This document shows positions 15,987 through 32,000 of a stretch of 32,000 bases of DNA, in pieces. Position 1 is the stretch's first letter. The number at the start of each line of letters is the position of its first letter. Position numbers and translations under genes: made by a program. The notes under the pieces are model-generated. The model worked only from the letters and a program-made list of their open reading frames with translations, searched no databases and had not been told where the DNA came from. Source of the stretch: Bdellovibrionales bacterium (GTDB lineage: Bacteria > Bdellovibrionota > Bdellovibrionia > Bdellovibrionales > UBA1609); NCBI GenBank assembly GCA_965247685.1, contig OZ252021.1, forward strand, positions 360,001 through 392,000, in the 5' to 3' direction.

Positions 15987-16304
15987 ACAGATATAAAAAC
16001 GAACGACGAAAACAGAGTCCTTATTCCTTAATAAATATTGAAATATTAATAAAAAGATTCTGATTAATATCTTTTACATATTTCACCACTCACTTCATTA
16101 GTACACATAGAAAGACTTAATTTACATCTCTATGTAAATTATTCATAACATATGAATGTTATTTAGGGAAAAAAGAGTGTGTTCTATTTTAGAATTTGTT
16201 TATAAAAACAAACAGTGTAATTTTTATTCTTATCTCTATTAATAAAATAGAGAATACTATATAATGCTTGTTTAATTACTTTTGTACGAAAAAGAGTTTT
16301 CATC

Positions 16305-18436: not shown

Positions 18437-18457
18437 TACTCTAATTGTTCAATCTTT

Positions 18458-18498
18458 GGAGACGGTTTAGGTATTTCCTTTGCCGTCTCCTTTTTTTT
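18458..18498 (+). terminator. Rho-independent terminator after pilin 1
   Basis: ggagacgg (18458-18465) pairs with ccgtctcc (18483-18490), followed by T8. Confidence 0.85.
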
Positions 18499-18511
18499 AT
18501 AAGGATATAAT

Positions 18512-18769
18512 ATGACAAAAGCGGATCGACTTATTTTTCTTTTCAGTTTTGGTATTCTTATTGCAAGTGTCATCTATATCATTAGTAATAATCATAAACA
18601 AAGTGTTTCAAGAAACAATGCATGGATAGAAGAAAGAGAAAGGAATGTATCTGATACATTTGACATAAGTGTTTGGAAAACTTATCACGAACGAGAAATG
18701 GCTTTACTAAGTGAAATCCTCATAGAATTAAGAAGACGAAACGAAGCTCTTTCTACTAAAACTTTATAA
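18512..18769 (+). CDS. 85-aa single-pass membrane protein, copy A; function unknown
   Basis: SD-like AAGGA 6 nt upstream. One TM helix (LIFLFSFGILIASVIYII) plus a charged helical tail. About 90% identical to the ORF at 22098-22355, with conservation of the reading frame. Confidence 0.6.
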   Translation: MTKADRLIFLFSFGILIASVIYIISNNHKQSVSRNNAWIEERERNVSDTFDISVWKTYHEREMALLSEILIELRRRNEALSTKTL

Positions 18770-18927
18770 AAATTATTTATATCTCTAAAAAAATCTAAGT
18801 GATACATCAAAACAAGATTATTTTGAGCACCCACATGTCCTTGCTGGGCTGCCTTTTCAATGGATCCATTTTGAGCAAGTGAAAAACTTTGAAATATTAA
18901 TAAAAAGGTTATAATTAATTTTTTCAT
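18685..18927 (-). pseudogene. Probable truncated Sel1-repeat protein fragment
   Basis: MKKLIITFLLIFQSFSLAQ signal peptide followed by a single Sel1-like unit (AAQQGHVGAQNNLVLMY). The ORF then runs antisense into the 85-aa gene and loses similarity. Confidence 0.3.
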
Positions 18928-19067
18928 ACTAAGTTTTATCTTAAAATAAATGTTACTCATAATTATTTACAATATGTTTTATATTTAAAAATACCAATCT
19001 TTTCCCCTTTTATAAAACTCCGACTTAATTCTTTCTATTTTAACAAACATAACAATTATTTTTTCCT

Positions 19068-19558
19068 TACTATTTAAAAGCAAATTATTGGAGTAAGAAT
19101 TTTTATTTATCTATCTATCAAGGTTGTTATATTTTTCCCGTAGATCCTCGTAAAATCCTCGTAAAATAAGTTCAAAATTCATCATAAAACATAAAAATCA
19201 CTTTTTAAACCCCTGCAAATACACATTCAAGAACCTTTTTTCTTCTAAGAAGTAAGTGCTAAAAATAGTGCTTATTTTTTTGGGGTTTTTTGTAGGGTCA
19301 AGGTGCATAAACGTCAAAAATCAACTTTTTTAAATATATACAATTAAGGAGAAAAAATTATGAAAAATTTAATAAAAAATAAACGAGGGTTTTCACTCAT
19401 TGAGCTAATGGTCGTTGTGGCTATCATGGGAACATTGGCGGCGATTGCAATTCCTGCATACAATGAATATAGGAAGTCAGCAAAGAAGACTGCTTATAAG
19501 TCAGACTTACTATCGCTGCATAGAGGTTGGCTCGCTTTCGGTGTTGAGCTGGATTCTT
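19068..19558. repeat. Copy 2 of the ~500-bp direct repeat
   Basis: Carries the last 29 nt of the integrase reading frame (tactatttaaaagcaaattattggagtaag) without any integrase gene upstream. Followed by the same promoter region and pilin 5' end. Confidence 0.9.
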
Positions 19559-19847
19559 ATTGTGCAAGAGAGACTAAACCACGAGAGGCTACATTATCTA
19601 ACGTAGGAATGGTATCTCTCTTTTCTAGTAAACTTTATGGCAATCAAGGATCAGCAGCAGACGCCAATTGTAATGTTGGTGTCCAGGGCCTTCCGCTTGT
19701 GTATTGGGGATTACTACATATAGAATGGGAGTTGCAGGACATATATCTGGTGACCAGTATGTAGGAATAAATGTAGTACAAACTGGTATTTTGGATGAAA
19801 ATGATAGTGCTGCTGCTACAGCCTCACTTAGTGATGCTTGTACTTAA
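19360..19847 (+). pseudogene. Type IV pilin paralog interrupted by a frameshift (or sequencing error)
   Basis: The first 66 aa are almost identical to pilin 1. Frame 1 stops at 19764. The conserved C-terminal motif [17 protein letters not shown](V/Y)G is found in another frame (open 19674-19847, ending DACT-stop). The shift must lie between 19674 and about 19712. Confidence 0.7.
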
Positions 19848-19876
19848 TACTTTGATTGTCTAATTTTAAGAAGAGA

Positions 19877-19912
19877 AGGACGGCTTGGATTTTCTTGCCG
19901 TCCTTTTTTTTA
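19877..19912 (+). terminator. Rho-independent terminator after pilin 2
   Basis: aggacggc (19877-19884) pairs with gccgtcct (19897-19904), followed by T8. Confidence 0.8.
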
Positions 19913-19964
19913 TGATTACTATGAATAGAATCAATGTTATTCTTGCTTTTAACAAAAAAGTAAG

Positions 19965-21791
19965 ATGAAATTTATAAAATATAATATTTCTCCTTTAATT
20001 ACAGTTATCCTTCTATCCTTATTATTTTGCGGACACAGGTGTTTTGACATTTTCGTTAATAGGAGGCAGATACTTCAATCTTCTTTAGATGTTGTTCATC
20101 CTTTAGCTTTAATGTTTCTTGCAGATACTTTTTTCTTTTTCATATGGAATATACCATTTTTTATAACCTACCTACTTTGTGAGCATCTTAAAAAAGATGT
20201 AAATTTTTCTAAAAGGAATATTTTATTTATTTTTCTTAATCTTCCAGTGTTTCTTTTATTTCTAATTGATGCTCAAACATTATCCGTAAGAGAACAAGTC
20301 TTTAATTTAGAAATGATAAAAACTGTTCAAATCGAACAATTATTTAGTATTTTTGTTTTTATTAAAGATTATTGGTGGGTTTTAGCAGCGCTGTTACTCC
20401 CGTCCATTTATTTTGTCGGTAGAGTCTATACCTCTTTACTGAAAAAGAAAATCTTTTCTAAGATTGGTTTTATTTTTTTAATAAGCTTTATTGCATTTAG
20501 CTTCACAGCTTATAAACCTAGTTTTTACAAATATCTTTCTCTTGAAGATTACCATACAAGTATTTTATCCACTGATTTATGGTACAATGGAATGGCCTAT
20601 AGAATGCTTCTTTTAGTGAATAAAAGGTTTGATCCACGATACTGTAACACTAGTTTTTTTAGCTCCTTAAGTATACCCTCGAACTTTTATAAAAAGAGTT
20701 TATCTTCATCTCAATTAAGAAAAGATAAAAACGCCATTATTATTGTTATCGAAAGCTTTAATTACAAATATATAAAACCAGATATTACCCCGTTTCTTTA
20801 TAATCTCACTCAAAAAGGTCTTTACAATGAAAAGCATATCACTAATTCTTCTTCAACTGGAGATGCTATCAAATCTATTCTAGGTAGTAAATTTAACAAG
20901 CTTGTTAAATTATCTTTATACGAAGATCCTTTATTTAACATATTTAAAAAAAATAACTATAAAACTTTCTTTTTCTTTGGAGGTAAAAAAAATACTTATA
21001 CTTTTGATAAGATGGCAGAGAGATACGGTATTAGTTATTTTTTTTCAAAAGAAAATTATGTAAATGCAATTAAAGATAAAAGTCACATAGACAGTCAAGG
21101 AGATGTTTTTGATGATAAATTCTTTCCTTATTCTGCTGAAAAGCTAAAAAAGGAAAAGAGTCCCTTTTTTGCAATTATGCTTACTAATAACCCTCACTTT
21201 CCTTTTGATTGCCCTAAAAATAGTTCTGATTTCACTGAGGAGAAAAGGTATACGGAATGCTTAAGGTATATTGATAAAACTTTAGAATCTTTTGTAAAAG
21301 CATTAGAGGATACAAATACTTTATTTGCTATCACAGGGGATCACATAACTAGAATACAAATGGATCAAGTTTACTATTTTGATAAATATAGAGTTCCTTT
21401 AATTTTTTACTCAAAGAATGAAAATCTAAGTTTATATGAAAATGACCTAACATCACATATGGATATTTTACCAAGTGTAATTGATTTTTTAAATTTATCT
21501 GAAGATTTCTCTCCTATACAGAATTCAATTTTTGATTCTATTAAAAATAAAATTTTTAATTATTCTTACCACAACAAATTCCTACTAGCTGAGGAAGATT
21601 ATGTGGTAGAGTACTCTTGCTTTTCAAATAAGTTTAATTTGTTCAATATAAATAGTTACAAAATAGATGGTATGAATGAAGCTATAAAAAAATCTGTTTT
21701 AAAAGAACGATATGTAAACAATCTTAAAACCTTTATCCAATACAGCTTTCAGGGTTTAGGAAATAGATCGCCATCTTCAGAAACAGATTGA
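19965..21791 (+). CDS. LtaS/OpgB-type membrane-anchored sulfatase-superfamily (phospho-substituent transferase-like) enzyme
   Basis: About 5 N-terminal TM helices followed by an alkaline-phosphatase/sulfatase-type domain: NAIIIVIESFNYKYI (metal/nucleophile region) and FAITGDHITR (GDH motif). Confidence 0.7.
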   Translation: MKFIKYNISPLITVILLSLLFCGHRCFDIFVNRRQILQSSLDVVHPLALMFLADTFFFFIWNIPFFITYLLCEHLKKDVNFSKRNILFIFLNLPVFLLFLIDAQTLSVREQVFNLEMIKTVQIEQLFSIFVFIKDYWWVLAALLLPSIYFVGRVYTSLLKKKIFSKIGFIFLISFIAFSFTAYKPSFYKYLSLEDYHTSILSTDLWYNGMAYRMLLLVNKRFDPRYCNTSFFSSLSIPSNFYKKSLSSSQLRKDKNAIIIVIESFNYKYIKPDITPFLYNLTQKGLYNEKHITNSSSTGDAIKSILGSKFNKLVKLSLYEDPLFNIFKKNNYKTFFFFGGKKNTYTFDKMAERYGISYFFSKENYVNAIKDKSHIDSQGDVFDDKFFPYSAEKLKKEKSPFFAIMLTNNPHFPFDCPKNSSDFTEEKRYTECLRYIDKTLESFVKALEDTNTLFAITGDHITRIQMDQVYYFDKYRVPLIFYSKNENLSLYENDLTSHMDILPSVIDFLNLSEDFSPIQNSIFDSIKNKIFNYSYHNKFLLAEEDYVVEYSCFSNKFNLFNINSYKIDGMNEAIKKSVLKERYVNNLKTFIQYSFQGLGNRSPSSETD

Positions 21792-21802
21792 TACTTCTTT
21801 AA

Positions 21803-21835
21803 AACGAAAGTTCTCCCTTTTTTTTGTCTTTTCAA
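21803..21835. repeat. 33-bp repeat T33a (right half of terminator hairpin + T-run + gtcttttcaa)
   Basis: aacgaaagttctccc-T8-gtcttttcaa matches 23968-23999 (T7 there). Here the left hairpin arm is missing. Confidence 0.85.
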
Positions 21836-21885
21836 CAATGATTATTTTATAACTCAAGTCTCAACGCATTATTTATAAAACTAGA

Positions 21886-21951
21886 ATGGAAAATATTTAA
21901 TGTTTTGAATCTAATAATATTGTATCAAAACAAATCATAATCCCTATAAAA
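21886..21951. repeat. 66-bp repeat R66a
   Basis: atggaaaatatttaatgttttgaatctaataatattgtatcaaaacaaatcataatccctataaaa matches 26717-26782 at 64/66 positions. Confidence 0.92.
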
Positions 21952-22039
21952 CACGGTTTTTCTTTTCAAGAGACAGCTTGTGAAATAGAATTCTTATTTC
22001 AATTAAAGAAAGTGGTTTCATGGCAATAACTACTTGTTT

Positions 22040-22386
22040 AATCTCTGGAAATGGTTTAGTATTTCCTTTACTGCCTCCTTTTTTATAAGGATATAATATG
22101 ACAAAAGCTGATCGACTTATTTTTCTTTTAAGTTTTGGTATTCTTATTGCAAGTGTCATCTATATCATTAGCAATAATCATAGAGAAAACGTTTCAAGAA
22201 ACAATGCATGGATAGAAGAAAGAAACAAGAATGTATCTGATACATTTGACATACGTGTTTGGAAAACTTACCACGAACGAGAGATGGCTTTACTAAGTGA
22301 AATTCTCATAGAATTAAGAAAACGAAACGAAGCTCTTTCTACTAAAACTTTATAAAAAGTATTCATATCTCTAAAAAAATCTAGCT
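22040..22386. repeat. Copy 2 of the ~350-bp repeat carrying the 85-aa ORF
   Basis: See 18451-18800. Confidence 0.85.
22098..22355 (+). CDS. 85-aa single-pass membrane protein, copy B
   Basis: Paralog of 18512-18769. The differences are mostly conservative (KQSVS/RENVS, RERNV/RNKNV). Same SD context. Confidence 0.6.
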   Translation: MTKADRLIFLLSFGILIASVIYIISNNHRENVSRNNAWIEERNKNVSDTFDIRVWKTYHEREMALLSEILIELRKRNEALSTKTL

Positions 22387-22442
22387 GATTTATGTATTAT
22401 CTTTAAGGGTAATAACGGAAGAAAACTGACCCTTTCCTCATA

Positions 22443-22490
22443 TTAAAAGCCTACATTCAATATGGTTTTCATGGATTGGAGGAACAGTAA
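22443..22490 (+). pseudogene. Remnant of the 3' end of a second LtaS-like gene
   Basis: Translation LKAYIQYGFHGLEEQ-stop aligns with the C-terminus of the 19965-21791 product (LKTFIQYSFQGLGNR...). A stop codon lies just upstream (22413), so only a fragment remains. Confidence 0.35.
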
Positions 22491-22645
22491 CCCTGAATTA
22501 GAAAGCTTTAGCACCACTATATGTTATTTTTATTAAACTTTTCTATTGTTTGTGCATAAGCTAAATGCCCCTGCATTTTTTCTTTATTTTTCAGAGAGAC
22601 ATAAAAAATAAACTTATCACTTACAGCTAGTCCCTTTTTGTACTT

Positions 22646-23680
22646 TTAAATCGATGAAATTTCATCTAAAAACAATTGTATATCTTTCTTAGTTTTTTGA
22701 TCATGAAAATCAATATTTTCCTTTTTTAAACAGTAATCAGAGGTGAAAAAGGATATTCGACCAATGTTGTCAAAATTTAATTTTATACGAGATTTTGCTA
22801 TTTTTGAATATTTCTTAATAGACAAGTCCCAAAGATAGTAAGAGATTTTAAATCGATCTAAAGTTACTTCATAAGAATCCATAGTAAAACATTGAACTGG
22901 TCCACCTCCACGAAATGCGCTTCCAAACAACGAAAGAAATATCATTTCAGAATCCATTCTATCAGCTTGAAGTTTCATCCTTGCATTTCCACTATTTAGA
23001 ATACCATTAACTATGTCCGTTCTGCGATCGGACTTCATACTAGACATAGCTTTCCTAATTTTCCAAGAATTACTCCATATTTGAAAAAATGGAGGAACAA
23101 ATTGATAAGTATTCACCATTCCACACATATTCCTATCAATAGATTCAGATAAATCTTTTTTGAATGAATCAGATTTTTCTCCAAAACATCCAAACCTAGT
23201 AAAATCGTAGCACAGAAATCTATTTATCATTAAAATATCCAAGACTGAATTACTATTTAAAGTATGTTTATATTCAGGCTCTAAAAGAGTATATAAGTTT
23301 TTATATGCTACCGTCTTATTTATATTTTGTTTCTTTGATTTAATTCTTTTTGATAAAAATTCGTTAAACCCTTCTTTAGTTATTTTTTCTTTAAGTCGTT
23401 TAGTGTAAATATCAAGGGCTGTATCAAAGAAACTCACAGAATCATCAGCTGACTTTAGTGATTTATCTATGTTTTTATATATCGATTCTTTTAATTCTTT
23501 ATCTATACCGAATTCTTTATCAATCTGATGTTGAGAAATCCCATAAAATTCTATCGTTGATGCTATAGATATAGCCATCTTTTTATCTTTCATGTGAGGG
23601 AATATATGTTTATAAAAATTGGGGGTTTTAGTACCAAATATCTTTCCCATTATGCTATTATCTAAATAAATCTTTTCCAA
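22646..23680 (-). CDS. Hypothetical 344-aa cytoplasmic protein (orphan gene in defence island)
   Basis: Long ORF with no TM helix and no signal peptide. No motif confidently recognised. The N-terminal KIYLDNSIMGKIF weakly resembles the first strand of PIN-like domains. Confidence 0.6.
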   Translation of the reverse strand: MEKIYLDNSIMGKIFGTKTPNFYKHIFPHMKDKKMAISIASTIEFYGISQHQIDKEFGIDKELKESIYKNIDKSLKSADDSVSFFDTALDIYTKRLKEKITKEGFNEFLSKRIKSKKQNINKTVAYKNLYTLLEPEYKHTLNSNSVLDILMINRFLCYDFTRFGCFGEKSDSFKKDLSESIDRNMCGMVNTYQFVPPFFQIWSNSWKIRKAMSSMKSDRRTDIVNGILNSGNARMKLQADRMDSEMIFLSLFGSAFRGGGPVQCFTMDSYEVTLDRFKISYYLWDLSIKKYSKIAKSRIKLNFDNIGRISFFTSDYCLKKENIDFHDQKTKKDIQLFLDEISSI

Positions 23681-23838
23681 TTAATACTCCTTAAAAACCA
23701 ATAGAAACCATCAAGCAATTATCCCATTCCTAACAACCACACGTCTGACACTGGTAATATGCCATTTTCCACCCGTCCTTATTGGGACATTGTCAGCGTT
23801 TAAAGTATCTGTTTTCTTTCCTCATATCTCACTTACAA

Positions 23839-23866
23839 TTGACATAATTTAATTATAATATACAAT
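23839..23866 (+). promoter_or_regulatory. Near-consensus sigma70-type promoter (TTGACA-16 nt-TACAAT)
   Basis: ttgaca at 23839-23844, a 16-nt AT-rich spacer, and tacaat at 23861-23866. Confidence 0.5.
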
Positions 23867-23872
23867 TTAGTA

Positions 23873-23989
23873 ACGATCAATCGGATGTAAATGAAACTTG
23901 TACTTAATTGATAAATTTGAAACTGTGGTTTGTTTAGATGCTACCACAGTATAAGATCAAAAGGGAGAACGAAAGTTCTCCCTTTTTTT
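23873..23989 (+). ncRNA. Candidate ~115-nt small RNA or terminated leader upstream of the CBASS operon
   Basis: Bounded by the promoter above and a strong terminator. Contains an internal perfect 8-bp hairpin (actgtggt 23922-23929 / accacagt 23943-23950). The only ORF inside it is 6 codons long. Confidence 0.3.
23963..23989 (+). terminator. Rho-independent terminator
   Basis: gggagaac-gaaa-gttctccc followed by T7. No plus-strand CDS precedes it. Confidence 0.8.
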
Positions 23990-23999
23990 GTCTTTTCAA
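23968..23999. repeat. 32-bp repeat T33b
   Basis: Matches 21803-21835. Confidence 0.85.
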
Positions 24000-24045
24000 T
24001 TGTGTGGAATATTATTGCAATCACCACTCCTGCCTTCTTTTTCCT

Positions 24046-24073
24046 TTGACTTTTATATAATTTATGTTATAAT
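24046..24073 (+). promoter_or_regulatory. Putative sigma70-type promoter of the CBASS operon (TTGACT-16 nt-TATAAT)
   Basis: ttgact at 24046-24051 and tataat at 24068-24073, about 50 nt upstream of the capV-like GTG start. Confidence 0.5.
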
Positions 24074-24124
24074 AAGTCATAATAAAAAAATATATTCATT
24101 TTAAGAGATTTTTTAAAGGACCAT

Positions 24125-25090
24125 GTGAAAATACAATCGAGTAACTCAACTATAAACAATAAAGAAAACCAGAAACCTTTCAAAATTCTTGCTCTAGACG
24201 GAGGCGGGGTGCGTGGAATCTTACCCGCTCAAATATTGGCACTTATAGAAGAAAAACTTAATATCAGCATATACGAAAATTTTGACCTTATTGTCGGAAC
24301 GAGTACAGGAAGCATTATTGCTGGAGCCATATCAACTAAATACCCATTATCTAAGTTAACAAAAAAATACGCACAATTTGCTCCTAAAATTTTCAAGAAG
24401 TCTCTTTTTAGGCATGGATTCTTTAAATCAAAATATAGCTCAAAGCCTTTAGAAAATTTTTTAAAAGAAGTGTTTGAGGAAAGAAAACTAGGAAATTTGG
24501 AAAAACCTCTAATTATTAACGCAACAAATGTAAGCACTGGAAATGTTATTATTTTCAAATCAAAATACCAAGAAGAAATGAGAAACGGGGAAGATTATAC
24601 TAGAGACAAAAAAATACCTCTGTTTAAGGCTATATTAGCTTCGTGTTCTGCTCCAATTTATTTTAATCCTGTAAATATAGATGGTTCTCTTATTTCTGAT
24701 GGTGGTCTTTGGGCAAACAATCCTTCACTTGTAGGCTATACGGATGCAATCAGAAATTTCAACGCAAAAAATATAAGAATTTTTTCTTTAGGCACAGGAA
24801 AAACTTCAATATCCAATGATTCCTCAAAATGGGGCTGGGGGAAATGTAGTGGATGGGGAGGTGTTAAATTAGTAGACCTTGTAATGTCTTGTCAAACAAC
24901 ATTCCCCTCAAATATACTTAACCTCATTAACAAGGAGAACACTCTAAGAATTAATCCAAGTATTGATGATTGCCCACTTGATGATTATGAGAAAATACCT
25001 AGTTTAAGCGCATTAGCACAGCAAGAATTTAACAATCGAAATATCGAAATCAAAAACTTTTTAACATTAGGAGGTAAAAGTGGAACATGA
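24125..25090 (+). CDS. capV: Patatin-like phospholipase (CBASS effector, CapV-like)
   Basis: LALDGGGVRG (oxyanion GGGxRG), GTSTG (GxSxG nucleophile) and SDGGLWANNP (catalytic Asp-Gly). GTG start with AAGGA upstream. The 3' end overlaps the next gene by 11 nt. Confidence 0.85.
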   Translation: MKIQSSNSTINNKENQKPFKILALDGGGVRGILPAQILALIEEKLNISIYENFDLIVGTSTGSIIAGAISTKYPLSKLTKKYAQFAPKIFKKSLFRHGFFKSKYSSKPLENFLKEVFEERKLGNLEKPLIINATNVSTGNVIIFKSKYQEEMRNGEDYTRDKKIPLFKAILASCSAPIYFNPVNIDGSLISDGGLWANNPSLVGYTDAIRNFNAKNIRIFSLGTGKTSISNDSSKWGWGKCSGWGGVKLVDLVMSCQTTFPSNILNLINKENTLRINPSIDDCPLDDYEKIPSLSALAQQEFNNRNIEIKNFLTLGGKSGT

Positions 25091-26042
25091 ACTGTTTTTC
25101 AAAGATTTTTTAAAAGATGAGGTTAATTTAAATAAAACCAGAATAGACACTCTAGAAGAAAGAAAAGAATCTATTACAAATTATCTGAACACAAATCTTA
25201 GTGGCTACAAAAAATTTAGTGAGCAAGGCTCCTATGCACATAAAACTATTATCAAACCCGTTGATACTAACGATAGCTTTGATGTTGATATTTTAGTTTA
25301 TATAAAGAATGATGATTTCACTCCAAAGGATTTTAAAGAAGACTATGTGGATACAATTTATCAGGTTTTTAAAGGAAATGATAATTATGTAGATAAAATT
25401 ACAAAGAACACTCGTTGTGTAACTATTAAATATGCTGGAGATTTTCATTTAGATATTGTTCCCTGCGTTGAAAAGGATAGTACTTACTATATATGTAATA
25501 GAAACAATAAAGAGTATGAAAAAACTGATGGTGATGGATACAAACAATGGCTGATTGGAAAAAATGAAATTACTGGAAATAATAATTTAAGAAAGGTAAC
25601 TCGTATTTTAAAATTTTTAAGAGATTATAAAAATACATTTTCAGTCAAATCCATACTACTCACTACAATTTTAGGTAATCAAGTTGGTAATGCTGAAAAT
25701 TTTTCTAATTTCCCAACAGCCTTGAAAGAGATTTCTAATAGACTAAATGATTTTCTTCAACAAAACGAAAATATGCCTATAATTGCAAACCCAGTCCTCC
25801 CTGAAGAAGACTTTAACAGACATTGGGATCAGATAAAATATAAAAATTTTAGGGAAAAGTTTAATTCTTATAATGAGAAGATTAATAAAGCATTTAAGGA
25901 AACAAAAAATAATGAAAGCGTAAAAAAATGGAGAGAAATATTTGGAGATACATTTGGAAGACTCATAGAAGGACCTAAAGAACCAAATAAATTATATAAT
26001 AAGACAATAGTGGCAACTAAACCATACTCCGAAAAGTTATAA
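25080..26042 (+). CDS. SMODS-type nucleotidyltransferase (CD-NTase, cGAS/DncV-like)
   Basis: Pol-beta NTase signature GSYAHKTIIKP...FDVDILVY plus the third acidic residue in FHLDIVPC. GTG start preceded by GGAGG. Positioned directly after the patatin gene, as in capV-dncV operons. Confidence 0.8.
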   Translation: MEHELFFKDFLKDEVNLNKTRIDTLEERKESITNYLNTNLSGYKKFSEQGSYAHKTIIKPVDTNDSFDVDILVYIKNDDFTPKDFKEDYVDTIYQVFKGNDNYVDKITKNTRCVTIKYAGDFHLDIVPCVEKDSTYYICNRNNKEYEKTDGDGYKQWLIGKNEITGNNNLRKVTRILKFLRDYKNTFSVKSILLTTILGNQVGNAENFSNFPTALKEISNRLNDFLQQNENMPIIANPVLPEEDFNRHWDQIKYKNFREKFNSYNEKINKAFKETKNNESVKKWREIFGDTFGRLIEGPKEPNKLYNKTIVATKPYSEKL

Positions 26043-26046
26043 TTAT

Positions 26047-26676
26047 TTGATTGATTTTGCTGAAAAAGAATTCAATGAAATAAAAGAATATTTTCCTAAT
26101 TCTTCTTATGATTCAGTCAAAAATAGAATTGATATTTCACTTACTATGCCTCCTCGGTACTATAAAGAAAGTAATCTTTCTGAATGGGAGATAAAGCTTT
26201 GTAATAAAAATCAAACAGGTTGGTTTGATGGTGAGTATTTGATTACAATTGATTTAAATAGTCAGAAAGTTTTTGAACTTTCGGAAAAGATAAAGAGTTT
26301 AGCAAAACAACTAGGTAAAACATTTTTTGATTTACATGTAAATTCAGATGGAAGTTGCTGTCTAGGAATAGATATAGAGAATAAAAAAATGACTCTAACT
26401 GCATTTATTTTTGAAAAAGTTTTTCCTTATTTTTCATGGCAAGCTTATTATGCCAAGTATAAAAGAATTCCTCCTTGTGGAGAGTTCTCTCACGGCGATG
26501 CTGGCAAGCAAGAGGCAATTCAAGACTATGAAAAAACCATGACATCTGTAGATAAATTTGGTCGAAATAAACCCTGTCTTTGTAAAAGTGGGAAAAAATA
26601 TAAGAAATGTTGTTTCCTTTCTGATGAAAAAAAGAAATCTTATTTAAGGGAATTCGAAAAAAACAATAACCTGTGA
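26047..26676 (+). CDS. E2 (UBC)-like protein with C-terminal SEC-C zinc-binding motif (Cap2-short-like)
   Basis: LHVNSDGSCCLGIDI resembles the UBC active site (H-P-N-x(3-4)-G-x-I-C-L-D-I). It is preceded by an N-terminal helix and strand-like segments. The C-terminus CLCKSGKKYKKCC is a SEC-C motif. TTG start 5 nt after the CD-NTase stop. Confidence 0.5.
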   Translation: MIDFAEKEFNEIKEYFPNSSYDSVKNRIDISLTMPPRYYKESNLSEWEIKLCNKNQTGWFDGEYLITIDLNSQKVFELSEKIKSLAKQLGKTFFDLHVNSDGSCCLGIDIENKKMTLTAFIFEKVFPYFSWQAYYAKYKRIPPCGEFSHGDAGKQEAIQDYEKTMTSVDKFGRNKPCLCKSGKKYKKCCFLSDEKKKSYLREFEKNNNL

Positions 26677-26716
26677 GATTGTAAGTAGAGGAGGCTCTAG
26701 AGAAAATATAGAAATG

Positions 26717-26782
26717 ATGGAAAATATTTAATATTTTGAATCTAAGAATATTGTATCAAAACAAATCATAATCCCTATAAAA
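26717..26782. repeat. 66-bp repeat R66b
   Basis: Matches 21886-21951 at 64/66 positions. Lies 40 nt after the stop of the E2-like gene. Confidence 0.92.
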
Positions 26783-26828
26783 TTTTAAAGACTCTCATGG
26801 TGTAAGAAATAATGTATTTGCTATCTTT

Positions 26829-27341
26829 ATGCATGAGGGTGAGCTTTCTTCCTCTTCTGTAAATAGCTTAATTTCGGACATTAAATCATTGGACAAAAAA
26901 ACAGACCATGAATTTGATTTATTATTAGATACTATTCTTATAACACAACAAAAAATATTAGCTACTGAAAACATCATGAGAGAATTAAACATATTACACA
27001 GAGCTGTTACTAAAAAAGAAGCTATTTATCAGTCACAATATATCTCAAACAATCTTGGTAATTATCCAAAATTATATCCTATAGAAATAGCACCTTTATT
27101 TGATTCAACTAGATACTTTCTAATCGAGATTAGCCTATTGTTTGACCACGCATATAAATCAAAGCAGTTGATTGAAAGTATTTATGAAAAGCTTAAATTT
27201 AAAAAGGAAGATAGAACATACATACAACCTGAGGTAAGAAAAAAATATGATGCGATTTTAGAAGAAACAAAAAAAAATAATTCAAATCCAAACCAAAAAA
27301 TATTTGATACGGTTATAAATAACAATAAAAAGACCACTTAG
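26829..27341 (+). CDS. Hypothetical 170-aa helical protein
   Basis: ORF only. No TM helix and no recognisable motif. Lies between the two defence operons. Confidence 0.45.
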   Translation: MHEGELSSSSVNSLISDIKSLDKKTDHEFDLLLDTILITQQKILATENIMRELNILHRAVTKKEAIYQSQYISNNLGNYPKLYPIEIAPLFDSTRYFLIEISLLFDHAYKSKQLIESIYEKLKFKKEDRTYIQPEVRKKYDAILEETKKNNSNPNQKIFDTVINNNKKTT

Positions 27342-27579
27342 ATTAAAACTTTCAAGATTAATATTTGGAGGATTTTTAGTTTTAGAAGAGAAGATTTGAA
27401 TATTAAAGCTGTAAAACCCTTCATTAGTTGATTACAGAGCAATTATGAAGGCAAACAACTCAAAACACACAGTTCTAAATTCGTTCACTCTCCCCCGTCA
27501 TTCTTTTAAAAGTCCTACTAGAGATATTTGTATCTATAAAATTAAAGTTTTTAAGACTTTAGTCCGACAATTGTAGAAT

Positions 27580-28812
27580 ATGTCTGTAGATACCTTACTG
27601 AATATACTTCTACCTGCTAGTTGGTTTGATTGGATCTTCTTTGGTTCTATCTTTGTACTATTTTTTTTGTCTATAGCAAATATTATTTCCATAAACCCAA
27701 ATGTTTTAGTAACAATAGGTATTCTTGGAACTTTTCTTGGTATAGCCACAGGGCTTAATGATTTCAACACTTCAGATATTAGCGCTAGTATTCCTCAATT
27801 ACTAAAAGGATTGAAACTTTCTTTTAAGACAAGCCTTTGGGGAATAATTTTTAGTTTAATTTTAAAAACTATCAATAGTTTTTTATCAACTACAGAGGAT
27901 ACATCAGATACACCAAAGAATATTCAAAATATGCTTTTTCAGATAAATAAAGGGTTATCTGATTTAAGAATAGATATTCATCATTCTTACAATGAGAAGT
28001 TAAGAATCGGCAATAAACAACACACAGAATTTCTTTCTGAATTCAGAAATTTTACAAAAACTATGGCCAAACAAAATTCCAAAGCATTGATCGAAGCTTT
28101 AAATGAAATCATTACAGATTTTAATAAAAATTTAACTGAACAATTTGGAGAAAATTTTAAACAATTAAATACAGCAGTTCATAAGCTAGTAGATTGGCAA
28201 GAAAATTATAAAACTCATATTGAAACTTTACAGAACAAAATGGACTTAGCTCATGAATCTATTTTAAAAACGGAAGAAGTTCTAAAACAAATTGCTCTAC
28301 ATATAAAAGAAATTCCTGAATATTTATCTCAATTCAAAGATATGTTGACCGCACTAAAAAGAACAACTGAGGAGCAGAAAGTTTATTTAACAGGAATAAA
28401 AGAATTAAAGGATCAAGCTATTCAATCTTTCCCTATAGTTGAAGAGAATATTAAAAAAATAACAACAGATTTTTCTGAAATTGCCGAAGAATTTAGTAAT
28501 AAAACAAAAGTAAATTTAAACTCTCAAAAGAAAACTTTTTCATCATTAGAAAAAGGATTTAGTGACTTACAAATTTCTTCCGAAGAGTTAAACAATCAAA
28601 TGCAATCTACTATGAAGGGCATCTTAGGAAAAATGTCTAATGAAATTAATAATAAGATAGAAGAATTCGATCAAAAAATGCAAGAAGAGTTAAGAAGAGT
28701 TATAGAAACAATGGGAAAGCACCTTGCTTCAATAAATGAAAAAGTTGCTAAAGATTACACTCCTATAATTAATCATCTACAAAAAATCCTAGAAGGAGTG
28801 AGCCCTCGTTGA
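27580..28812 (+). CDS. zorA: MotA/ExbB/TolQ-family channel protein with ~290-aa coiled-coil tail (ZorA-like, compact)
   Basis: Three TM helices. GILGTFLGIATGL and FKTSLWGIIFSLILK resemble the two conserved MotA/ExbB channel helices. The remainder is K/E/Q/L-rich with heptad character. An in-frame stop lies 2 codons upstream, so ATG 27580 is the only available start. Confidence 0.7.
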   Translation: MSVDTLLNILLPASWFDWIFFGSIFVLFFLSIANIISINPNVLVTIGILGTFLGIATGLNDFNTSDISASIPQLLKGLKLSFKTSLWGIIFSLILKTINSFLSTTEDTSDTPKNIQNMLFQINKGLSDLRIDIHHSYNEKLRIGNKQHTEFLSEFRNFTKTMAKQNSKALIEALNEIITDFNKNLTEQFGENFKQLNTAVHKLVDWQENYKTHIETLQNKMDLAHESILKTEEVLKQIALHIKEIPEYLSQFKDMLTALKRTTEEQKVYLTGIKELKDQAIQSFPIVEENIKKITTDFSEIAEEFSNKTKVNLNSQKKTFSSLEKGFSDLQISSEELNNQMQSTMKGILGKMSNEINNKIEEFDQKMQEELRRVIETMGKHLASINEKVAKDYTPIINHLQKILEGVSPR

Positions 28813-29510
28813 GTTCTTTAAAAGATATTATTGGTTCTAAAGCAGAAGATGAATCTCAATGGATTTCCATATCAGATTTCATGACTGCTTTAATGGTTAT
28901 TTTTCTGTTTATTGCAGTCATTTATATGAGAGAAGTGAATGGGATAATTAGTTCTTATAGAGATTCTAGAAATGCGATCTATAAAAATTTAAAGAAAGAA
29001 TTTGGAAGTGATTTAAAAAAATGGAAAGCTGAACTTATTAGAGAATCCTTAACTATTCGTTTTGTTGCACCAGAAATATTTTTCGATCCTGCTAAATCAA
29101 CAATCAAACCAGCATTTAAAATTATACTAAATAATTTTTGCCCCAGATATTTTAAGACTATTTATCAATCTAAAAAAGATATTGAGGAAATTAGGATAGA
29201 GGGTCACACATCTATAGAGTGGTTCAACTTTCCAAAAAACATAGCTTACTTTAAAAACATGGAATTATCTCAAAATAGAACACGATCTGTTTTACAATAT
29301 TGTTTCAATTTAGTAAAAAATTCAAACCAAAACAAAGAATGGATTAGAAAACATCTTACAGCTAATGGTCTTTCTTCAAGTAAGCCTTTAAAAAAATGTA
29401 ATCAACTCGCATGTCATAGAAGGGTTGAGTTTCGTGTGCAAGTCAAAGCAGAATCAGTGCTGAATAAAATATCAAATTTTGGAATGAAAAAAAATCGAAG
29501 GTTTAGATGA
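28809..29510 (+). CDS. zorB: MotB/OmpA-family stator-like protein (ZorB-like)
   Basis: QWISISDFMTALMVIFLFIAV is a MotB-type TM helix with the conserved Asp. OmpA-like C-terminus: RIEGHTS, LSQNRTRSVLQY, GLSSSKPL and RRVEFRV. The TTG start overlaps the upstream TGA. Confidence 0.75.
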   Translation: MSSLKDIIGSKAEDESQWISISDFMTALMVIFLFIAVIYMREVNGIISSYRDSRNAIYKNLKKEFGSDLKKWKAELIRESLTIRFVAPEIFFDPAKSTIKPAFKIILNNFCPRYFKTIYQSKKDIEEIRIEGHTSIEWFNFPKNIAYFKNMELSQNRTRSVLQYCFNLVKNSNQNKEWIRKHLTANGLSSSKPLKKCNQLACHRRVEFRVQVKAESVLNKISNFGMKKNRRFR

Positions 29511-30364
29511 AAATTGAAGTGGATTTTAAGGGTTTAATTAGATTAAAACAAAAAATAAATGCTTCCGAAACCAGTTGGAATTTGGATGATTCTCACCCAT
29601 TGAGTGCTTTGTCTTTGTACGAAGGTGAAGAAGTTAGTTCTTTAAACGAGATTGAAATTTATTGTGACTTACTTACTAATAAGAAAGGAGAGCAAATCAT
29701 ACTTTATATCAAAGATTCCAGAATATCGGAGGAAAAAGTTTCAGAACCAGAAAGGGCTCCAAAATTTCATATAGCAGATTGTCGTACACTTGAGGAAATG
29801 AGAGAAAATAATCGTTCTGCAAGATACGTTACTACAACCAGAGCTACAGGAACATTTCTTGTGGATGCGACAAATCCTGACACGCAAGAAGTTATAAAAG
29901 ATTTAGAAAGGCCTTTACATGTATGCAAAAATTGTCTGACAAAATTAGGTTGGAACGGCTATGATCCTGAAAATCCCAAGAAGCAAAGAAATCTTATAGT
30001 TAATGAGTTTTCAATAATTGATTTTCTCGCCACTTACAGCACTTTCTTTAAGGAAAAACCAAATCAGAGTGATATTACGACAAAGACAGGTGGTTATGTT
30101 AAAAATTGGCCAGAGATAGCCAATAGACATAAAGAGAGAACAGATTGGAAGTGTGAGAAGTGTGAAGTTAATCTAAGCACTAAAAAAGAGTATCTTCATT
30201 GTCATCATAAAAATGGTGTTATACAGGAAAATACCAGCTCAAATTTGGAAGCTTTATGTTTTGAATGTCATGCTAATAAGCCTTATCATGGCCAACTTAA
30301 AGCTATCTTAAACAAACAGCCTGAAATCAAAAAGGAAATAGACAATCTAAGAAAGAGAACTTGA
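29507..30364 (+). CDS. zorE: HNH endonuclease-domain protein (ZorE-like)
   Basis: C-terminal CEKCEVNL...LHCHHKNGV...SNLEALCFECHANK is an HNH motif with CxxC...CxxC zinc knuckles. ATGA overlap with the upstream gene. Confidence 0.7.
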   Translation: MKIEVDFKGLIRLKQKINASETSWNLDDSHPLSALSLYEGEEVSSLNEIEIYCDLLTNKKGEQIILYIKDSRISEEKVSEPERAPKFHIADCRTLEEMRENNRSARYVTTTRATGTFLVDATNPDTQEVIKDLERPLHVCKNCLTKLGWNGYDPENPKKQRNLIVNEFSIIDFLATYSTFFKEKPNQSDITTKTGGYVKNWPEIANRHKERTDWKCEKCEVNLSTKKEYLHCHHKNGVIQENTSSNLEALCFECHANKPYHGQLKAILNKQPEIKKEIDNLRKRT

Positions 30365-30373
30365 ACAATTGGA

Positions 30374-30404
30374 AATGAGTTTAAGTACGAAACTCATTTT
30401 AATT
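30374..30404 (+). terminator. Probable terminator after the HNH gene
   Basis: aatgagttt (30374-30382) pairs with aaactcatt (30390-30398) and runs into ttttaatt. Confidence 0.55.
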
Positions 30405-30569
30405 CAGATAAACCAAGTGATTTTATCAAGACCTATCAATTCCAAGCTGTTTAAGATAGGTATTTTCCAAATTGAAACATAAAACTCAGGAACACACTCC
30501 ACCTTCTTGGATACGAAGGTTTTTAATGAAAAATCGATTATAATTAGGTTTTAGGGCAAAAAAACAAGC

Positions 30570-30602
30570 CCAACTAGTAAAAAAATGAGATTTTTAATAG
30601 TT
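30570..30602. repeat. 33-bp direct repeat, copy 1 (upstream of fic)
   Basis: ccaactagtaaaaaaatgagatttttaatagtt is identical to 30642-30674. Confidence 0.92.
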
Positions 30603-30641
30603 AAGACCTTGCAATTATACAAAACTATCAGTTAACCTTAT

Positions 30642-30674
30642 CCAACTAGTAAAAAAATGAGATTTTTAATAGTT
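30642..30674. repeat. 33-bp direct repeat, copy 2 (ends 13 nt before the fic start codon)
   Basis: Identical to 30570-30602. The copies start 72 bp apart. Confidence 0.92.
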
Positions 30675-30687
30675 GAGGGTGTGAAAA

Positions 30688-31830
30688 ATGAATAAAAACA
30701 AACAAACAGGTCGTTTTATTCCGAAATTGAATGGAGACAGCTATGAAGCTTTTATCCCAAACCCTCTTCCTCTTTCTGCTCCTTTTCGAATGGAACAGTT
30801 TTATACATTGCTTGAGAAAGCAAACACATCTCTAGGAAGACTAGATGGAATTACAACGGTTCTTCCAAGTTTTAGAAGATTATCTAATATATTTATGAAA
30901 AAGGAAGCCACTCTTTCTTCTAAGATAGAAGGTACACAATCAACTTTATCTGACTTTTTAATTTTTGAAACAAAAGAAGATCAAACAAAATCAGAAGATA
31001 ACATAGAAATTCAAAACTATATTTTAGCTATGGAACATGGTTTGCATAAAATAACAAAACTACCTGTGTCTCGTAGACTGATTTGTGAAATTCATAAAAT
31101 ACTTCTTTCAAGTGGTCGAGGAAGTGATAAAACTCCTGGCGAGTTTCGTAAAACACAAAATTGGATAGGGGGATCTCGCCCAGAAAACGCTATTTTTATC
31201 CCACCACCCCCTGAAAACCTTGATGAATGTTTTAGTGATTTTGAGAAATTTTTAAATAATAAAAACGTGCAAATGCCCACTCTTATCAAAGTTGCTTTAG
31301 CACACGTTCAGTTTGAAACTCTACACCCTTTTTCGGATGGAAACGGAAGAGTAGGAAGACTTCTAATTACTTTCATGCTTTGTTTAAGTGGTCTTTTAAA
31401 AGAACCTTTATTATATCTCAGTTTATATTTTCATAAGCATAGAACAGAGTATTACAATCTACTACAATCTGTTAGAGAAAAAGGAGATTGGGAAGCTTGG
31501 GTTCATTTCTTTCTGACAGGGATTATAGAAACTGCTAAACAAATTCAAGATACATCTCATCAAATTATTAATACATTCAAAGAAGATGAAAAAAGAATAA
31601 AGGGTGAGTGTACGGCTGGGGTTATTAAGGCCTATGGTTGTTTTAAAACATATCCTATTGCTTCGGTTAAAAAAGTGCAGGAAGAATCTTCCTCATCCTA
31701 TCAAACTACTTTAAAATCGTTAAAAACTTTGGAAAAACTTGGATTAGTTAAAGAAATAACAGGTCGACATCATAACAAAATTTTTATTTATAAGAGTTAC
31801 ATAAACATCCTTGAAAGAGGACTCAATTAA
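30688..31830 (+). CDS. fic: Fic-family protein (AMPylase-type) with N-terminal inhibitory helix and C-terminal wHTH-like region
   Basis: Fic motif HPFSDGNGRVGR (HxFx[DE]GNGRxxR). N-terminal SSKIEG fits the [ST]xxxE[GN] inhibitory motif. The length and layout are typical of Fic_N + Fic proteins. Confidence 0.88.
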   Translation: MNKNKQTGRFIPKLNGDSYEAFIPNPLPLSAPFRMEQFYTLLEKANTSLGRLDGITTVLPSFRRLSNIFMKKEATLSSKIEGTQSTLSDFLIFETKEDQTKSEDNIEIQNYILAMEHGLHKITKLPVSRRLICEIHKILLSSGRGSDKTPGEFRKTQNWIGGSRPENAIFIPPPPENLDECFSDFEKFLNNKNVQMPTLIKVALAHVQFETLHPFSDGNGRVGRLLITFMLCLSGLLKEPLLYLSLYFHKHRTEYYNLLQSVREKGDWEAWVHFFLTGIIETAKQIQDTSHQIINTFKEDEKRIKGECTAGVIKAYGCFKTYPIASVKKVQEESSSSYQTTLKSLKTLEKLGLVKEITGRHHNKIFIYKSYINILERGLN

Positions 31831-31896
31831 TTATGTTATAGACTTGGCCGAAATGAACCATTTTAAAAGCTTCCTAGTTGTTACCTAACAATATCT

Positions 31897-32000
31897 TTAT
31901 TTTTGGATTTTAAATTGACTGGCTAATCTTTGTGCTTCTGCAATTTGATCCTTCGTCATTTGATTCTTTAGTGTATTCAACAATTGATCTATCGCCTTTT
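31897..32000 (-). CDS. 3' end of a gene running into the window from the right; Sel1-repeat-like C-terminus (partial)
   Basis: The reverse-strand frame reads KAIDQLLNTLKNQMTKDQIAEAQRLASQFKIQK-stop (stop at 31897-31899). This resembles the common Sel1-repeat protein ending (...QIAEAQ+LA...). Confidence 0.35.
   Translation of the reverse strand, partial: KAIDQLLNTLKNQMTKDQIAEAQRLASQFKIQK

What the first reader, a model, noticed from the sequence alone, without database searches (positions are those of the whole stretch)
27580..30364. Translationally coupled MotA-like / MotB-like / HNH nuclease operon: compact Zorya-II-like system
Seen in sequence: (1) A 410-aa protein with three TM helices carrying MotA/ExbB-like channel motifs (GILGTFLGIATGL; FKTSLWGIIFSLI), followed by a heptad-rich tail of about 290 aa. 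(2) A 233-aa protein with a MotB-type TM helix including the invariant Asp (SDFMTALMV) and an OmpA-like peptidoglycan-binding domain (IEGHTS...NRTRSV...RRVEFRV). (3) A 285-aa protein ending in a zinc-knuckle HNH (CEKCE...HCHHKNG...CFECH). Start and stop codons overlap at both junctions (TTGA at 28809-28812, ATGA at 29507-29510), implying fixed stoichiometry. Established knowledge: type II Zorya is defined as ZorA (MotA-like), ZorB (MotB-like) and ZorE (HNH). Inference: this is a Zorya-II-type membrane-anchored, ion-driven phage sensor coupled to a nuclease. The MotA-like subunit appears short, which would imply a much shorter intracellular tail than the well-studied type I ZorA. There is also no Shine-Dalgarno sequence before the first gene. 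It may therefore be a divergent or minimal subtype rather than canonical Zorya II. I cannot measure similarity to known ZorA/B/E without a search.
Basis: partly seen in the sequence, partly recalled or inferred. Interest (0 to 1): 0.8.

Follow-up and report, generated by a model that had tools for sequence, protein, structure and literature searches.

The report
Ordinary type II Zorya defence operon
These three overlapping genes are an intact but sequence-divergent copy of the known type II Zorya anti-phage system (a membrane ion-driven sensor, ZorA and ZorB, plus the ZorE DNA-nicking enzyme), and the "short" ZorA is normal for this family, so the finding is correct but ordinary.

Summary
Three same-strand ORFs lie at 27580-28812 (410 aa), 28809-29510 (233 aa) and 29507-30364 (285 aa), with 4-bp overlaps at both junctions.

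All three match type II Zorya profiles over their full length: PADLOC ZorA2 3.9e-74, ZorB2 1.5e-77, ZorE2 7.6e-74. The closest solved structure is the Sulfuricurvum kujiense type II ZorAB complex, PDB 8VVI (ZorA 2e-37, ZorB 1.9e-42).

In 73 of 80 related genomic loci, relatives of ZorA are followed by ZorB and ZorE in the same order. The functional residues are kept: ZorB Asp23, ZorA Ser85, and in ZorE two Cys/His clusters plus the HNH His/Asn residues.

The "compact/minimal subtype" idea fails:
- The best PADLOC ZorA2 profile is 420 positions long.
- The solved S. kujiense ZorA is 378 aa.
- In 72 complete loci ZorA has a median of 472 aa and a minimum of 349 aa, so 410 aa is the 14th percentile.
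- ZorB and ZorE sit at the family medians, and a 4-bp overlap is the most common junction.
- A missing Shine-Dalgarno is unremarkable, since 9 of 24 genes in the window lack one.

The operon sits in a low-GC defence island after an integrase, between a CBASS trio and a SoFic gene. The host is probably an uncultured Oligoflexia/Bdellovibrionota-like bacterium. The nearest relatives are 49% identical or less, so this is a new, divergent member of a known system.

The parts
27580..28812 (+). zorA (type II), 410 aa: membrane core with three helices plus a long helical cytoplasmic tail
   Evidence: PADLOC ZorA2 PDLC00637 E=3.9e-74, residues 24-404 aligned to profile positions 26-413 of 420. NCBIfam best hit is ZorA2. 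PDB 8VVI type II ZorA E=2e-37. 1412 homologues found.
27622..27885 (+). ZorA membrane core (residues 15-102), carrying the MotA/ExbB-like channel motifs with conserved G47, F52, G54, F82, S85 and G88
   Evidence: AF2 helices at 15-34, 40-60 and 67-102. Hydropathy analysis. Weak Pfam MotA_ExbB match at residues 44-104. Residues are 99-100% conserved in 73 sequences.
27892..28809 (+). ZorA cytoplasmic tail (residues ~105-410), all alpha-helical, including the near-invariant motif EQFGENFKxLNxAV..WQ at residues 187-207
   Evidence: AF2 secondary structure. Weak matches to SMC, apolipoprotein and MCP-signalling helical families. Conservation. The tail is required for defence in the E. coli type II system (PMC11890865).
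28809..29510 (+). zorB (type II), 233 aa: N-terminal TM helix with Asp23 plus a periplasmic OmpA-like peptidoglycan-binding domain
   Evidence: PADLOC ZorB2 PDLC00641 E=1.5e-77, residues 10-223 aligned to profile positions 9-235 of 238. PDB 8VVI ZorB E=1.9e-42. Pfam OmpA 34.0 bits, above the 27.2 cutoff.
28875..28877 (+). Codon of ZorB Asp23, the ion-coupling aspartate
   Evidence: In the 8VVI alignment this residue falls in the chain's WISLSDMM segment (chain residues 12 onward); by my count that Asp is D21, the critical type II aspartate of PMC11890865. It is conserved in 97% of 73 ZorB sequences.
29079..29432 (+). ZorB OmpA-like peptidoglycan-binding domain (residues ~91-208)
   Evidence: Pfam OmpA match at residues 91-200. 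Conserved E131-G-H-T-S135, N150, L153-S-Q155, R157 and R205-V-x-F208.
29507..30364 (+). zorE, 285 aa: N-terminal domain plus a C-terminal zinc-braced HNH nuclease
   Evidence: PADLOC ZorE2 PDLC00645 E=7.6e-74 and PDLC00642 E=9.5e-69 (residues 32-282 aligned to profile positions 40-277 of 283). NCBIfam ZorE E=8.8e-58. All 25 columns that are >=90% conserved in relatives are kept.
30152..30289 (+). ZorE HNH core (residues 216-261): C216, C219, H233, H234, N246, C251, C254, H255, H261
   Evidence: These residues are 92-96% conserved across 73 ZorE sequences. Pfam HNH gives a weak match at residues 216-258 (14.1 bits, below the 21.4 cutoff).
27342..27579 (+). 238-bp intergenic region upstream of zorA, presumed to hold the operon's promoter (not identified)
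   Evidence: Inference from gene layout only. Promoter-like matches in the region are fewer than expected by chance (10 found against 20.7 expected).
30501..30530 (+). Terminator-like stem-loop with a T-run, 137 nt after the zorE stop (tentative operon end)
   Evidence: Consensus scan. Three sites were found against 1.3 expected, so this is weak evidence.

Best explanation
This is an intact three-gene type II Zorya anti-phage operon, zorA-zorB-zorE.

Shown here: each protein is a full-length member of the corresponding type II Zorya family, the gene order is the family's conserved order, and the residues known or predicted to be functional are present.

Inferred from published work on homologues (PMC11890865, PMC11946911, PMC13192584):
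- Five ZorA subunits surround two ZorB N-terminal helices in the inner membrane, forming a 5:2 ion-driven rotary motor.
- The ZorB OmpA-like domains sense or bind peptidoglycan that is disturbed at the site of phage entry.
- This opens ion flow past ZorB Asp23 and the ZorA Ser/Thr ring.
- The signal passes down the bundled ZorA helical tails.
- The soluble HNH nickase ZorE is recruited or concentrated locally. It then nicks DNA, either phage DNA or, at a cost to the cell, host DNA.

The 4-bp overlaps fit translational coupling of the three genes.
For: - PADLOC: ZorA2 3.9e-74, ZorB2 1.5e-77, ZorE2 7.6e-74, each covering nearly the whole protein and profile.
- NCBIfam: the best hit for each protein is the type II Zorya model.
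- Closest solved structures: type II ZorA and ZorB of S. kujiense, 8VVI, at 2e-37 and 1.9e-42. The ZorB Asp falls in the chain's WISLSDMM segment, which holds the catalytic aspartate.
- Synteny: 73 of 80 loci encoding ZorA relatives carry ZorB and ZorE downstream in the same order and on the same strand. Five of the seven exceptions are cut off by contig ends, and two carry truncated ZorE remnants.
- Residues: the query keeps 41 of 43 (ZorA), 44 of 47 (ZorB) and 25 of 25 (ZorE) columns that are >=90% conserved. All five differences are substitutions away from the named functional residues.
- Sizes and junctions are typical of the family.
- Context: the operon lies between a CBASS trio and SoFic, downstream of an integrase, in a low-GC island.
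Against: - Scores are far below NCBIfam's curated equivalog cutoffs: 173.7 against 700, 172.1 against 400, and 195.8 against 600.
- Pfam MotA_ExbB, MotB_plug and HNH matches are below gathering thresholds.
- The nearest non-self ZorA is only 39% identical by BLASTP, so function is inferred across a large sequence distance.
- There is no experimental evidence for this locus or for any close relative.
- The mechanism by which ZorAB activates ZorE is still a model in the literature.
- No promoter was identified.
Confidence: 0.93

Rival explanations
1. It is a distinct 'minimal' or new Zorya subtype. Its shortened ZorA tail would imply a different signalling reach or mechanism from canonical type II.
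For: At 410 aa, ZorA lies in the lower part of the family range (14th percentile). Lengths of the best 120 homologues look bimodal, at about 420-440 and 460-480 aa. The sequences are divergent, and NCBIfam equivalog cutoffs are not reached.
Against: - The best PADLOC ZorA2 profile is 420 positions long and aligns end to end with the protein.
- The solved type II ZorA is 378 aa.
- Relatives of 349-412 aa occur with the same ZorB and ZorE partners.
- ZorB and ZorE are at family-median lengths, and all conserved tail motifs are present.
- Tail lengths per Zorya type have already been surveyed (PMC11946911).
Confidence: 0.04
2. It is a decayed or non-functional Zorya II remnant that merely retains open reading frames.
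For: Decayed versions exist: L079 and L080 have ZorAB followed by truncated ZorE fragments without the HNH domain. No promoter or SD was recognised before zorA.
Against: All three ORFs are full length relative to the profiles. All functional residues and nearly all conserved columns are retained. Coupled start/stop overlaps are preserved.
Confidence: 0.02
3. It is a non-defence 5:2 motor (a flagellar stator MotAB, ExbBD or TolQR type) that happens to lie next to an HNH nuclease gene.
For: There is weak Pfam MotA_ExbB and MotB_plug similarity, and an OmpA domain. NCBIfam gives weak MotB/MotS matches at 1e-5 to 6e-4.
Against: - ZorA2 and ZorB2 profiles score about 250 bits, against about 19-25 bits for the Mot/Exb models.
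- ZorA carries a 300-aa helical tail that stators lack.
- No flagellar, Ton or Tol genes are nearby.
- The HNH partner is conserved in 73 of 80 loci.
Confidence: 0.01

Closest known systems
Type II Zorya of Sulfuricurvum kujiense DSM 16994 (ZorA5B2 cryo-EM structure, PDB 8VVI; PMC11890865)
   Same: ZorA is a similarly short protein (378 aa against 410 aa) and aligns over residues 24-404. ZorB aligns over residues 14-215, including the segment that holds the ion-coupling Asp and the OmpA-like domain.
   Different: Sequence similarity is only moderate (phmmer E 2e-37 and 1.9e-42). The hosts belong to different lineages. No structure or assay exists for the present proteins.
Type II Zorya of E. 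coli ATCC 8739 / EDL933 (functionally tested; PMC11890865, PMC13192584)
   Same: Same three-gene architecture, and the same domain logic: a tail-bearing ZorA, a PG-binding ZorB and an HNH ZorE. The published mechanism is the template for the inference made here.
   Different: E. coli ZorA II is 550 aa. The long ZorE profiles are 358 (NCBIfam) and 375 (PADLOC) positions, and the query aligns only to positions 1-257 and 1-275 of them. The preprint describes an extra C-terminal nuclease-like region in Druantia-III-associated ZorE. The query ends 24 residues after the last conserved His, as do about 60 of 73 relatives. No Druantia III genes were seen in the window.
Type I Zorya (ZorABCD; E. coli 8QYD, Shewanella 8VVN)
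   Same: The 5:2 motor core motifs are shared, and so is a related tail motif: FGENFKQLN here against FGQQFTNLN in EcZorA.
   Different: Type I ZorA is about 700 aa with a roughly 70 nm tail. Type I uses ZorC and ZorD, which are absent here. PADLOC ZorA1 scores 51 bits or less, against 248 bits for ZorA2.
Flagellar stator MotAB and the ExbBD/TolQR 5:2 motors
   Same: Ion-driven 5:2 membrane motor architecture, with an Asp in the B-subunit TM helix and an OmpA-like PG anchor.
   Different: These motors have no long cytoplasmic tail, no nuclease partner, and a different genomic context. The Pfam and NCBIfam matches to them are sub-threshold.

Membership tests
Zorya type II (ZorA2-ZorB2-ZorE) | ZorA: a MotA/ExbB-like membrane protein with a long C-terminal helical tail that matches ZorA2 profiles | tested here: met
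   PADLOC PDLC00637 3.9e-74, near full length. PDB 8VVI ZorA 2e-37. Three N-terminal helices plus an all-helical tail in the AF2 model.
Zorya type II (ZorA2-ZorB2-ZorE) | ZorB: a MotB-like TM helix with the conserved ion-coupling Asp, plus an OmpA-like peptidoglycan-binding domain | tested here: met
   PADLOC PDLC00641 1.5e-77. 8VVI ZorB 1.9e-42, with D23 in the segment aligned to the chain's WISLSDMM, where the paper places the critical D21. Pfam OmpA is above its cutoff. D23 is conserved in 97% of relatives.
Zorya type II (ZorA2-ZorB2-ZorE) | ZorE: a soluble protein with an HNH nuclease domain | tested here: met
   PADLOC ZorE2 7.6e-74 and 9.5e-69. NCBIfam ZorE 8.8e-58. H233, H234, N246, H255 and two Cys/His clusters are conserved. 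Caveat: the generic Pfam HNH model scores only 14.1 bits against a 21.4 cutoff, and there is no PDB sequence match.
Zorya type II (ZorA2-ZorB2-ZorE) | Contiguous same-strand gene order zorA-zorB-zorE | tested here: met
   4-bp overlaps at both junctions. The same order occurs in 73 of 80 related loci, and a -4 overlap is the most common junction.
Zorya type II (ZorA2-ZorB2-ZorE) | No type I (ZorC/ZorD) or type III (ZorF/ZorG) accessory genes attached | tested here: met
   The flanking ORFs are a CBASS effector, cyclase and E2, an unknown 170-aa ORF and SoFic. None of them gave a Zor hit.
Zorya type II (ZorA2-ZorB2-ZorE) | Scores reach NCBIfam's curated equivalog cutoffs. This is a naming threshold tuned to close relatives of the reference proteins. 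| tested here: not met
   173.7 against 700 (ZorA2), 172.1 against 400 (ZorB2) and 195.8 against 600 (ZorE). This reflects divergence: BLASTP identity to the nearest non-self ZorA is 39%, and tblastn segment identities across the 80 loci are 26-42% (ZorA), 35-49% (ZorB) and 25-46% (ZorE). It does not reflect a different architecture.
Zorya type II (ZorA2-ZorB2-ZorE) | Anti-phage activity that depends on ion flow, the ZorA tail, ZorB PG binding and ZorE nuclease; ZorA5:ZorB2 stoichiometry | not testable with these tools
   Known only for the E. coli and S. kujiense homologues (PMC11890865).
Flagellar stator MotAB / ExbBD / TolQR | Pfam MotA_ExbB and MotB_plug matches above gathering score, no long tail, and a flagellar, Ton or Tol gene context | tested here: not met
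   MotA_ExbB 18.9 bits against a 22.9 cutoff, and MotB_plug 14.5 against 24. A 300-aa tail is present. The context is a defence island.
Zorya type I | A ZorA of about 700 aa together with ZorC and ZorD | tested here: not met
   ZorA1 profiles score 51 bits or less. No ZorC or ZorD genes are present.

The most novel reading that the evidence does not exclude
ZorA2 lengths among relatives look bimodal, at about 420-440 and 460-480 aa, with a tail down to about 350 aa. This locus belongs to the short group and sits in a probably Oligoflexia/Bdellovibrionota-like host. It is not excluded that tail length is tuned to cell geometry or to how ZorE is recruited. In that case short-tail systems would form a functionally distinct sub-class rather than neutral length variation.
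Probability: 0.06. Interest if true: 0.35.

Novelty: new member of a known kind. Interest (0 to 1): 0.12.

Why it matters
It matters little beyond annotation. The locus extends type II Zorya to a poorly sampled, low-GC lineage: every window protein tested is a singleton at 90% identity. It also gives a divergent sequence (49% identity or less to relatives) that keeps the family's invariant residues, which helps define what is essential. Examples are the ZorA tail motif EQFGENFKxLN..WQ and the two Cys/His clusters of ZorE. The surrounding CBASS-Zorya-SoFic island after an integrase is a textbook defence island. Any standard defence-finder would call this system automatically.

Tried and rejected
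- The look-up of encoding contigs for ZorA found no record, and the source genome is not among the GTDB species representatives (no 100% hit). The host could therefore only be placed tentatively, through ribosomal protein S9. Its nearest relatives are 85% identical, unnamed MAG proteins, and the only named near hit (64% identity) is from Oligoflexia/Bdellovibrio.
- The PDB sequence search for ZorE found nothing.
- The AF2 monomer model of ZorA is low confidence (pLDDT 65, pTM 0.27). I used only its secondary structure and ran no fold search, since the matches would be meaningless.
- The promoter scan gave fewer sites than shuffled sequence, so no promoter is claimed.
- tBLASTn of the neighbouring genes (170-aa ORF, 344-aa ORF, CBASS genes, SoFic) against the 80 Zorya loci gave no hits. 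None of them is part of the Zorya module.
- The 66-nt repeat flanking the CBASS block has no third copy after zorE, so it does not delimit the Zorya cassette.
- I considered and rejected three readings: a flagellar/Ton/Tol motor, type I or III Zorya, and a decayed remnant (see rival explanations).
Full report
**Observation.** The ORF list and the raw sequence confirm three + strand ORFs at 27580-28812 (ATG, 410 aa), 28809-29510 (TTG, 233 aa) and 29507-30364 (ATG, 285 aa). The start/stop overlaps are TTGA at 28809-28812 and ATGA at 29507-29510. Every quoted motif is present. Hydropathy analysis and an AF2 monomer model (pLDDT 65, pTM 0.27, so only its secondary structure is used) give ORF1 three N-terminal helices (15-34, 40-60, 67-102). 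An entirely helical tail follows, from about residue 105 to 406. ORF2 has a single hydrophobic helix that carries Asp23. ORF3 has no hydrophobic segment.

**Identity.** Against PADLOC-DB, the three proteins match ZorA2 (PDLC00637, 3.9e-74, residues 24-404 on profile positions 26-413 of 420) and ZorB2 (PDLC00641, 1.5e-77, residues 10-223 on positions 9-235 of 238). ORF3 matches ZorE2 (PDLC00645, 7.6e-74; PDLC00642, 9.5e-69, residues 32-282 on positions 40-277 of 283). Type I and type III ZorA profiles score 51 bits or less.

NCBIfam's best hit for each protein is the type II Zorya model, at 5.5e-51, 1.7e-50 and 8.8e-58. All three are far below the curated equivalog cutoffs. Generic Pfam models are weak: MotA_ExbB, MotB_plug and HNH fall below threshold, and only OmpA is above it.

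The closest solved structure is the Sulfuricurvum kujiense type II ZorA5B2 complex, 8VVI. ZorA matches at 2e-37 over residues 24-404 and ZorB at 1.9e-42 over residues 14-215. Query D23 falls in the segment aligned to the chain's WISLSDMM, where the paper that reports the structure places the critical type II aspartate D21 (PMC11890865). ZorE has no PDB sequence relative.

**Relatives and synteny.** ZorA has 1412 homologues at E<=1e-5, and the nearest non-self sequence is 39% identical. A scan of GTDB species-representative genomes with a 23-sequence ZorA alignment found 375 relatives in many phyla. Of the 80 loci kept, 73 have ZorB and ZorE relatives directly downstream in the same order and on the same strand. 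tBLASTn segment identities to the query are 35-49% for ZorB and 25-46% for ZorE. Five exceptions are cut off by contig ends. Two (L079, L080) carry truncated ZorE remnants that lack the HNH domain. None of the window's neighbouring genes recurs in those loci, so the three-gene module stands alone.

**Is it 'compact' or 'minimal'?** No.
- In 72 complete loci, ZorA has a median of 472 aa, a 10th percentile of 396 and a minimum of 349. The query's 410 aa is the 14th percentile.
- ZorB has a median of 235 aa (query 233), and ZorE a median of 284 aa (query 285).
- Among the 120 best database homologues there are full-length peers of 408-412 aa.
- The structurally solved type II ZorA is 378 aa, with the tail at residues 100-378. 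The paper states that type II complexes are substantially smaller than type I and that sizes are conserved within each family.
- Tail lengths per Zorya type were already surveyed in PMC11946911.
- The 4-bp overlap is the most common junction in the family: 18 of 72 for A/B and 31 of 72 for B/E.
- The absent SD before zorA is shared with 9 of 24 genes in this window, while zorB and zorE have SD-like sequences.
- ZorE ends 24 residues after its last conserved His, as do about 60 of 73 relatives. Only about 10 carry the 100-220-aa C-terminal extension. That extension is described for Druantia-III-associated ZorE (PMC13192584).

**Integrity.** The query keeps 41 of 43, 44 of 47 and 25 of 25 of the columns that are >=90% conserved in ZorA, ZorB and ZorE. 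All five differences are substitutions away from the named functional residues. The conserved residues are:
- ZorA: G47, F52, G54, F82, S85 and G88 in the membrane core, plus a near-invariant tail motif at E187-Q207.
- ZorB: W18, D23, the E131-GHTS-135 stretch, N150, L153-SQ-155, R157 and R205.
- ZorE: H88/C92/C140/C143 and C216/C219/C251/C254 (two putative Zn sites, as in the AF3 model of PMC13192584), plus H233, H234, N246, H255 and H261.

**Mechanism (inferred from homologues, not shown here).** ZorA5B2 forms an inner-membrane ion-driven motor. The ZorB peptidoglycan-binding domains respond to cell-wall perturbation at phage entry. Ion flow past the ZorB Asp drives rotation or a conformational change that travels along the bundled ZorA tails. 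ZorE, a Mg/Mn-dependent nickase, is recruited and concentrated there, and it damages phage DNA and, at some cost, host DNA (PMC11890865; PMC11946911; PMC13192584). How ZorAB activates ZorE is still unresolved in the literature.

**Context.** The left 15 kb of the window is housekeeping sequence at about 35% GC: rplM/rpsI, a peptide ABC permease and gamma-glutamyltransferase. After a tyrosine integrase (16305-17438), GC falls to 27-30%. Directly upstream of Zorya lies a CBASS trio:
- patatin effector, 3e-85;
- CD-NTase cyclase, 3.5e-117;
- E2-like protein with a SEC-C motif, 3.7e-18.

Downstream lies SoFic (5.5e-116). This is a typical defence island.

All six tested window proteins are singletons at 90% identity, from one 1.28-Mb NCBI/ENA contig. 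For ribosomal protein S9, the nearest relatives are unnamed MAG proteins (85% identical). The only named near hit is from Oligoflexia/Bdellovibrio, at 64%. The host assignment is therefore tentative.

**Verdict.** The finding is real and its main interpretation is correct. It is a canonical, intact, sequence-divergent type II Zorya operon that existing tools would call automatically. The features proposed as unusual are all typical of the family. It is a new member of a known kind, of low interest.

Noticed in passing
window 24125-26676 (+): A CBASS-like operon sits immediately upstream of Zorya. It comprises a patatin phospholipase effector (24125-25090), a CD-NTase/SMODS cyclase (25080-26042, overlapping the patatin gene by 11 nt), and a 209-aa E2-like protein with a C-terminal SEC-C motif (26047-26676).
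   Followed up: partly
window 30688-31830 (+): A SoFic-type Fic-domain defence protein (PADLOC SoFic 5.5e-116; Pfam Fic_N + Fic) lies directly downstream of zorE. It is preceded by a 36-nt direct repeat (30570-30605 and 30642-30677, 97% identical).
   Followed up: partly
window 16305-17438 and 16000-32000: A tyrosine integrase marks the left side of a low-GC (27-30% against about 35%) island that holds the defence genes. No adjacent tRNA was found (the only tRNA, Leu-GAG, is at 8563-8651). The island's right end lies beyond the window.
   Followed up: partly
window 21886-21951 and 26717-26782: A 66-nt direct repeat (97% identical; no other copy in the window, none expected by chance) brackets the block made of the unknown 344-aa ORF and the CBASS trio. 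It may be a cassette boundary or an att-like scar.
   Followed up: partly
window 18493-18792 and 22079-22378; 21803-21835 and 23968-23999: There are further long intergenic direct repeats within the island (300 nt at 94% identity, and about 33 nt at 95-100%). They suggest a mosaic of cassettes that share spacer sequences.
   Followed up: no
window 17410-17799 and 19068-19445: Two type IV pilin-like genes (17714-18436, 240 aa; 19360-19764, 134 aa) have near-identical upstream regions and N-terminal halves (94-97% at the DNA level), but their C-termini diverge. This could be a pilin variation cassette, or a truncated paralogue.
   Followed up: no
window 26829-27341 (+) and 22646-23680 (-): Two ORFs (170 aa and 344 aa) inside the defence island have no PADLOC or Pfam match and no counterpart in 80 Zorya II loci. 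Their function is unknown, and they could be orphan defence or accessory genes.
   Followed up: partly
window 28138-28200 (ZorA residues 187-207): The most conserved stretch of the whole ZorA2 family is not in the membrane core but in the tail: EQFGENFKxLNxAV..L..WQ, at about 100% in 73 sequences. A related FGQQFTNLN motif is seen in E. coli type I ZorA. It may be a tail-assembly or effector-docking element.
   Followed up: partly
L079 7822-8388; L080 5495-5782: Two related loci carry intact ZorA and ZorB followed by truncated ZorE fragments (188 aa with only the N-terminal domain, and 95 aa). These are naturally decayed Zorya II systems.
   Followed up: partly
window 2204-2503 (+): This 99-aa 'ORF' is made of repeated peptide units (SNLHSSQIFILLKSSFF / SYRYFPNLHFSQIFIL). 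It most likely reflects a tandem DNA repeat in an intergenic region between two paralogous VWA-like lipoprotein genes (841-2172 and 2782-3942).
   Followed up: no
window 405-794 (rpsI) and the whole window: All six window proteins tested are singletons at 90% identity. The closest S9 relatives are unnamed MAG proteins (85% identical), and the only named near hit is from Oligoflexia/Bdellovibrio (64%). The source is probably an under-sampled Bdellovibrionota-like lineage.
   Followed up: partly
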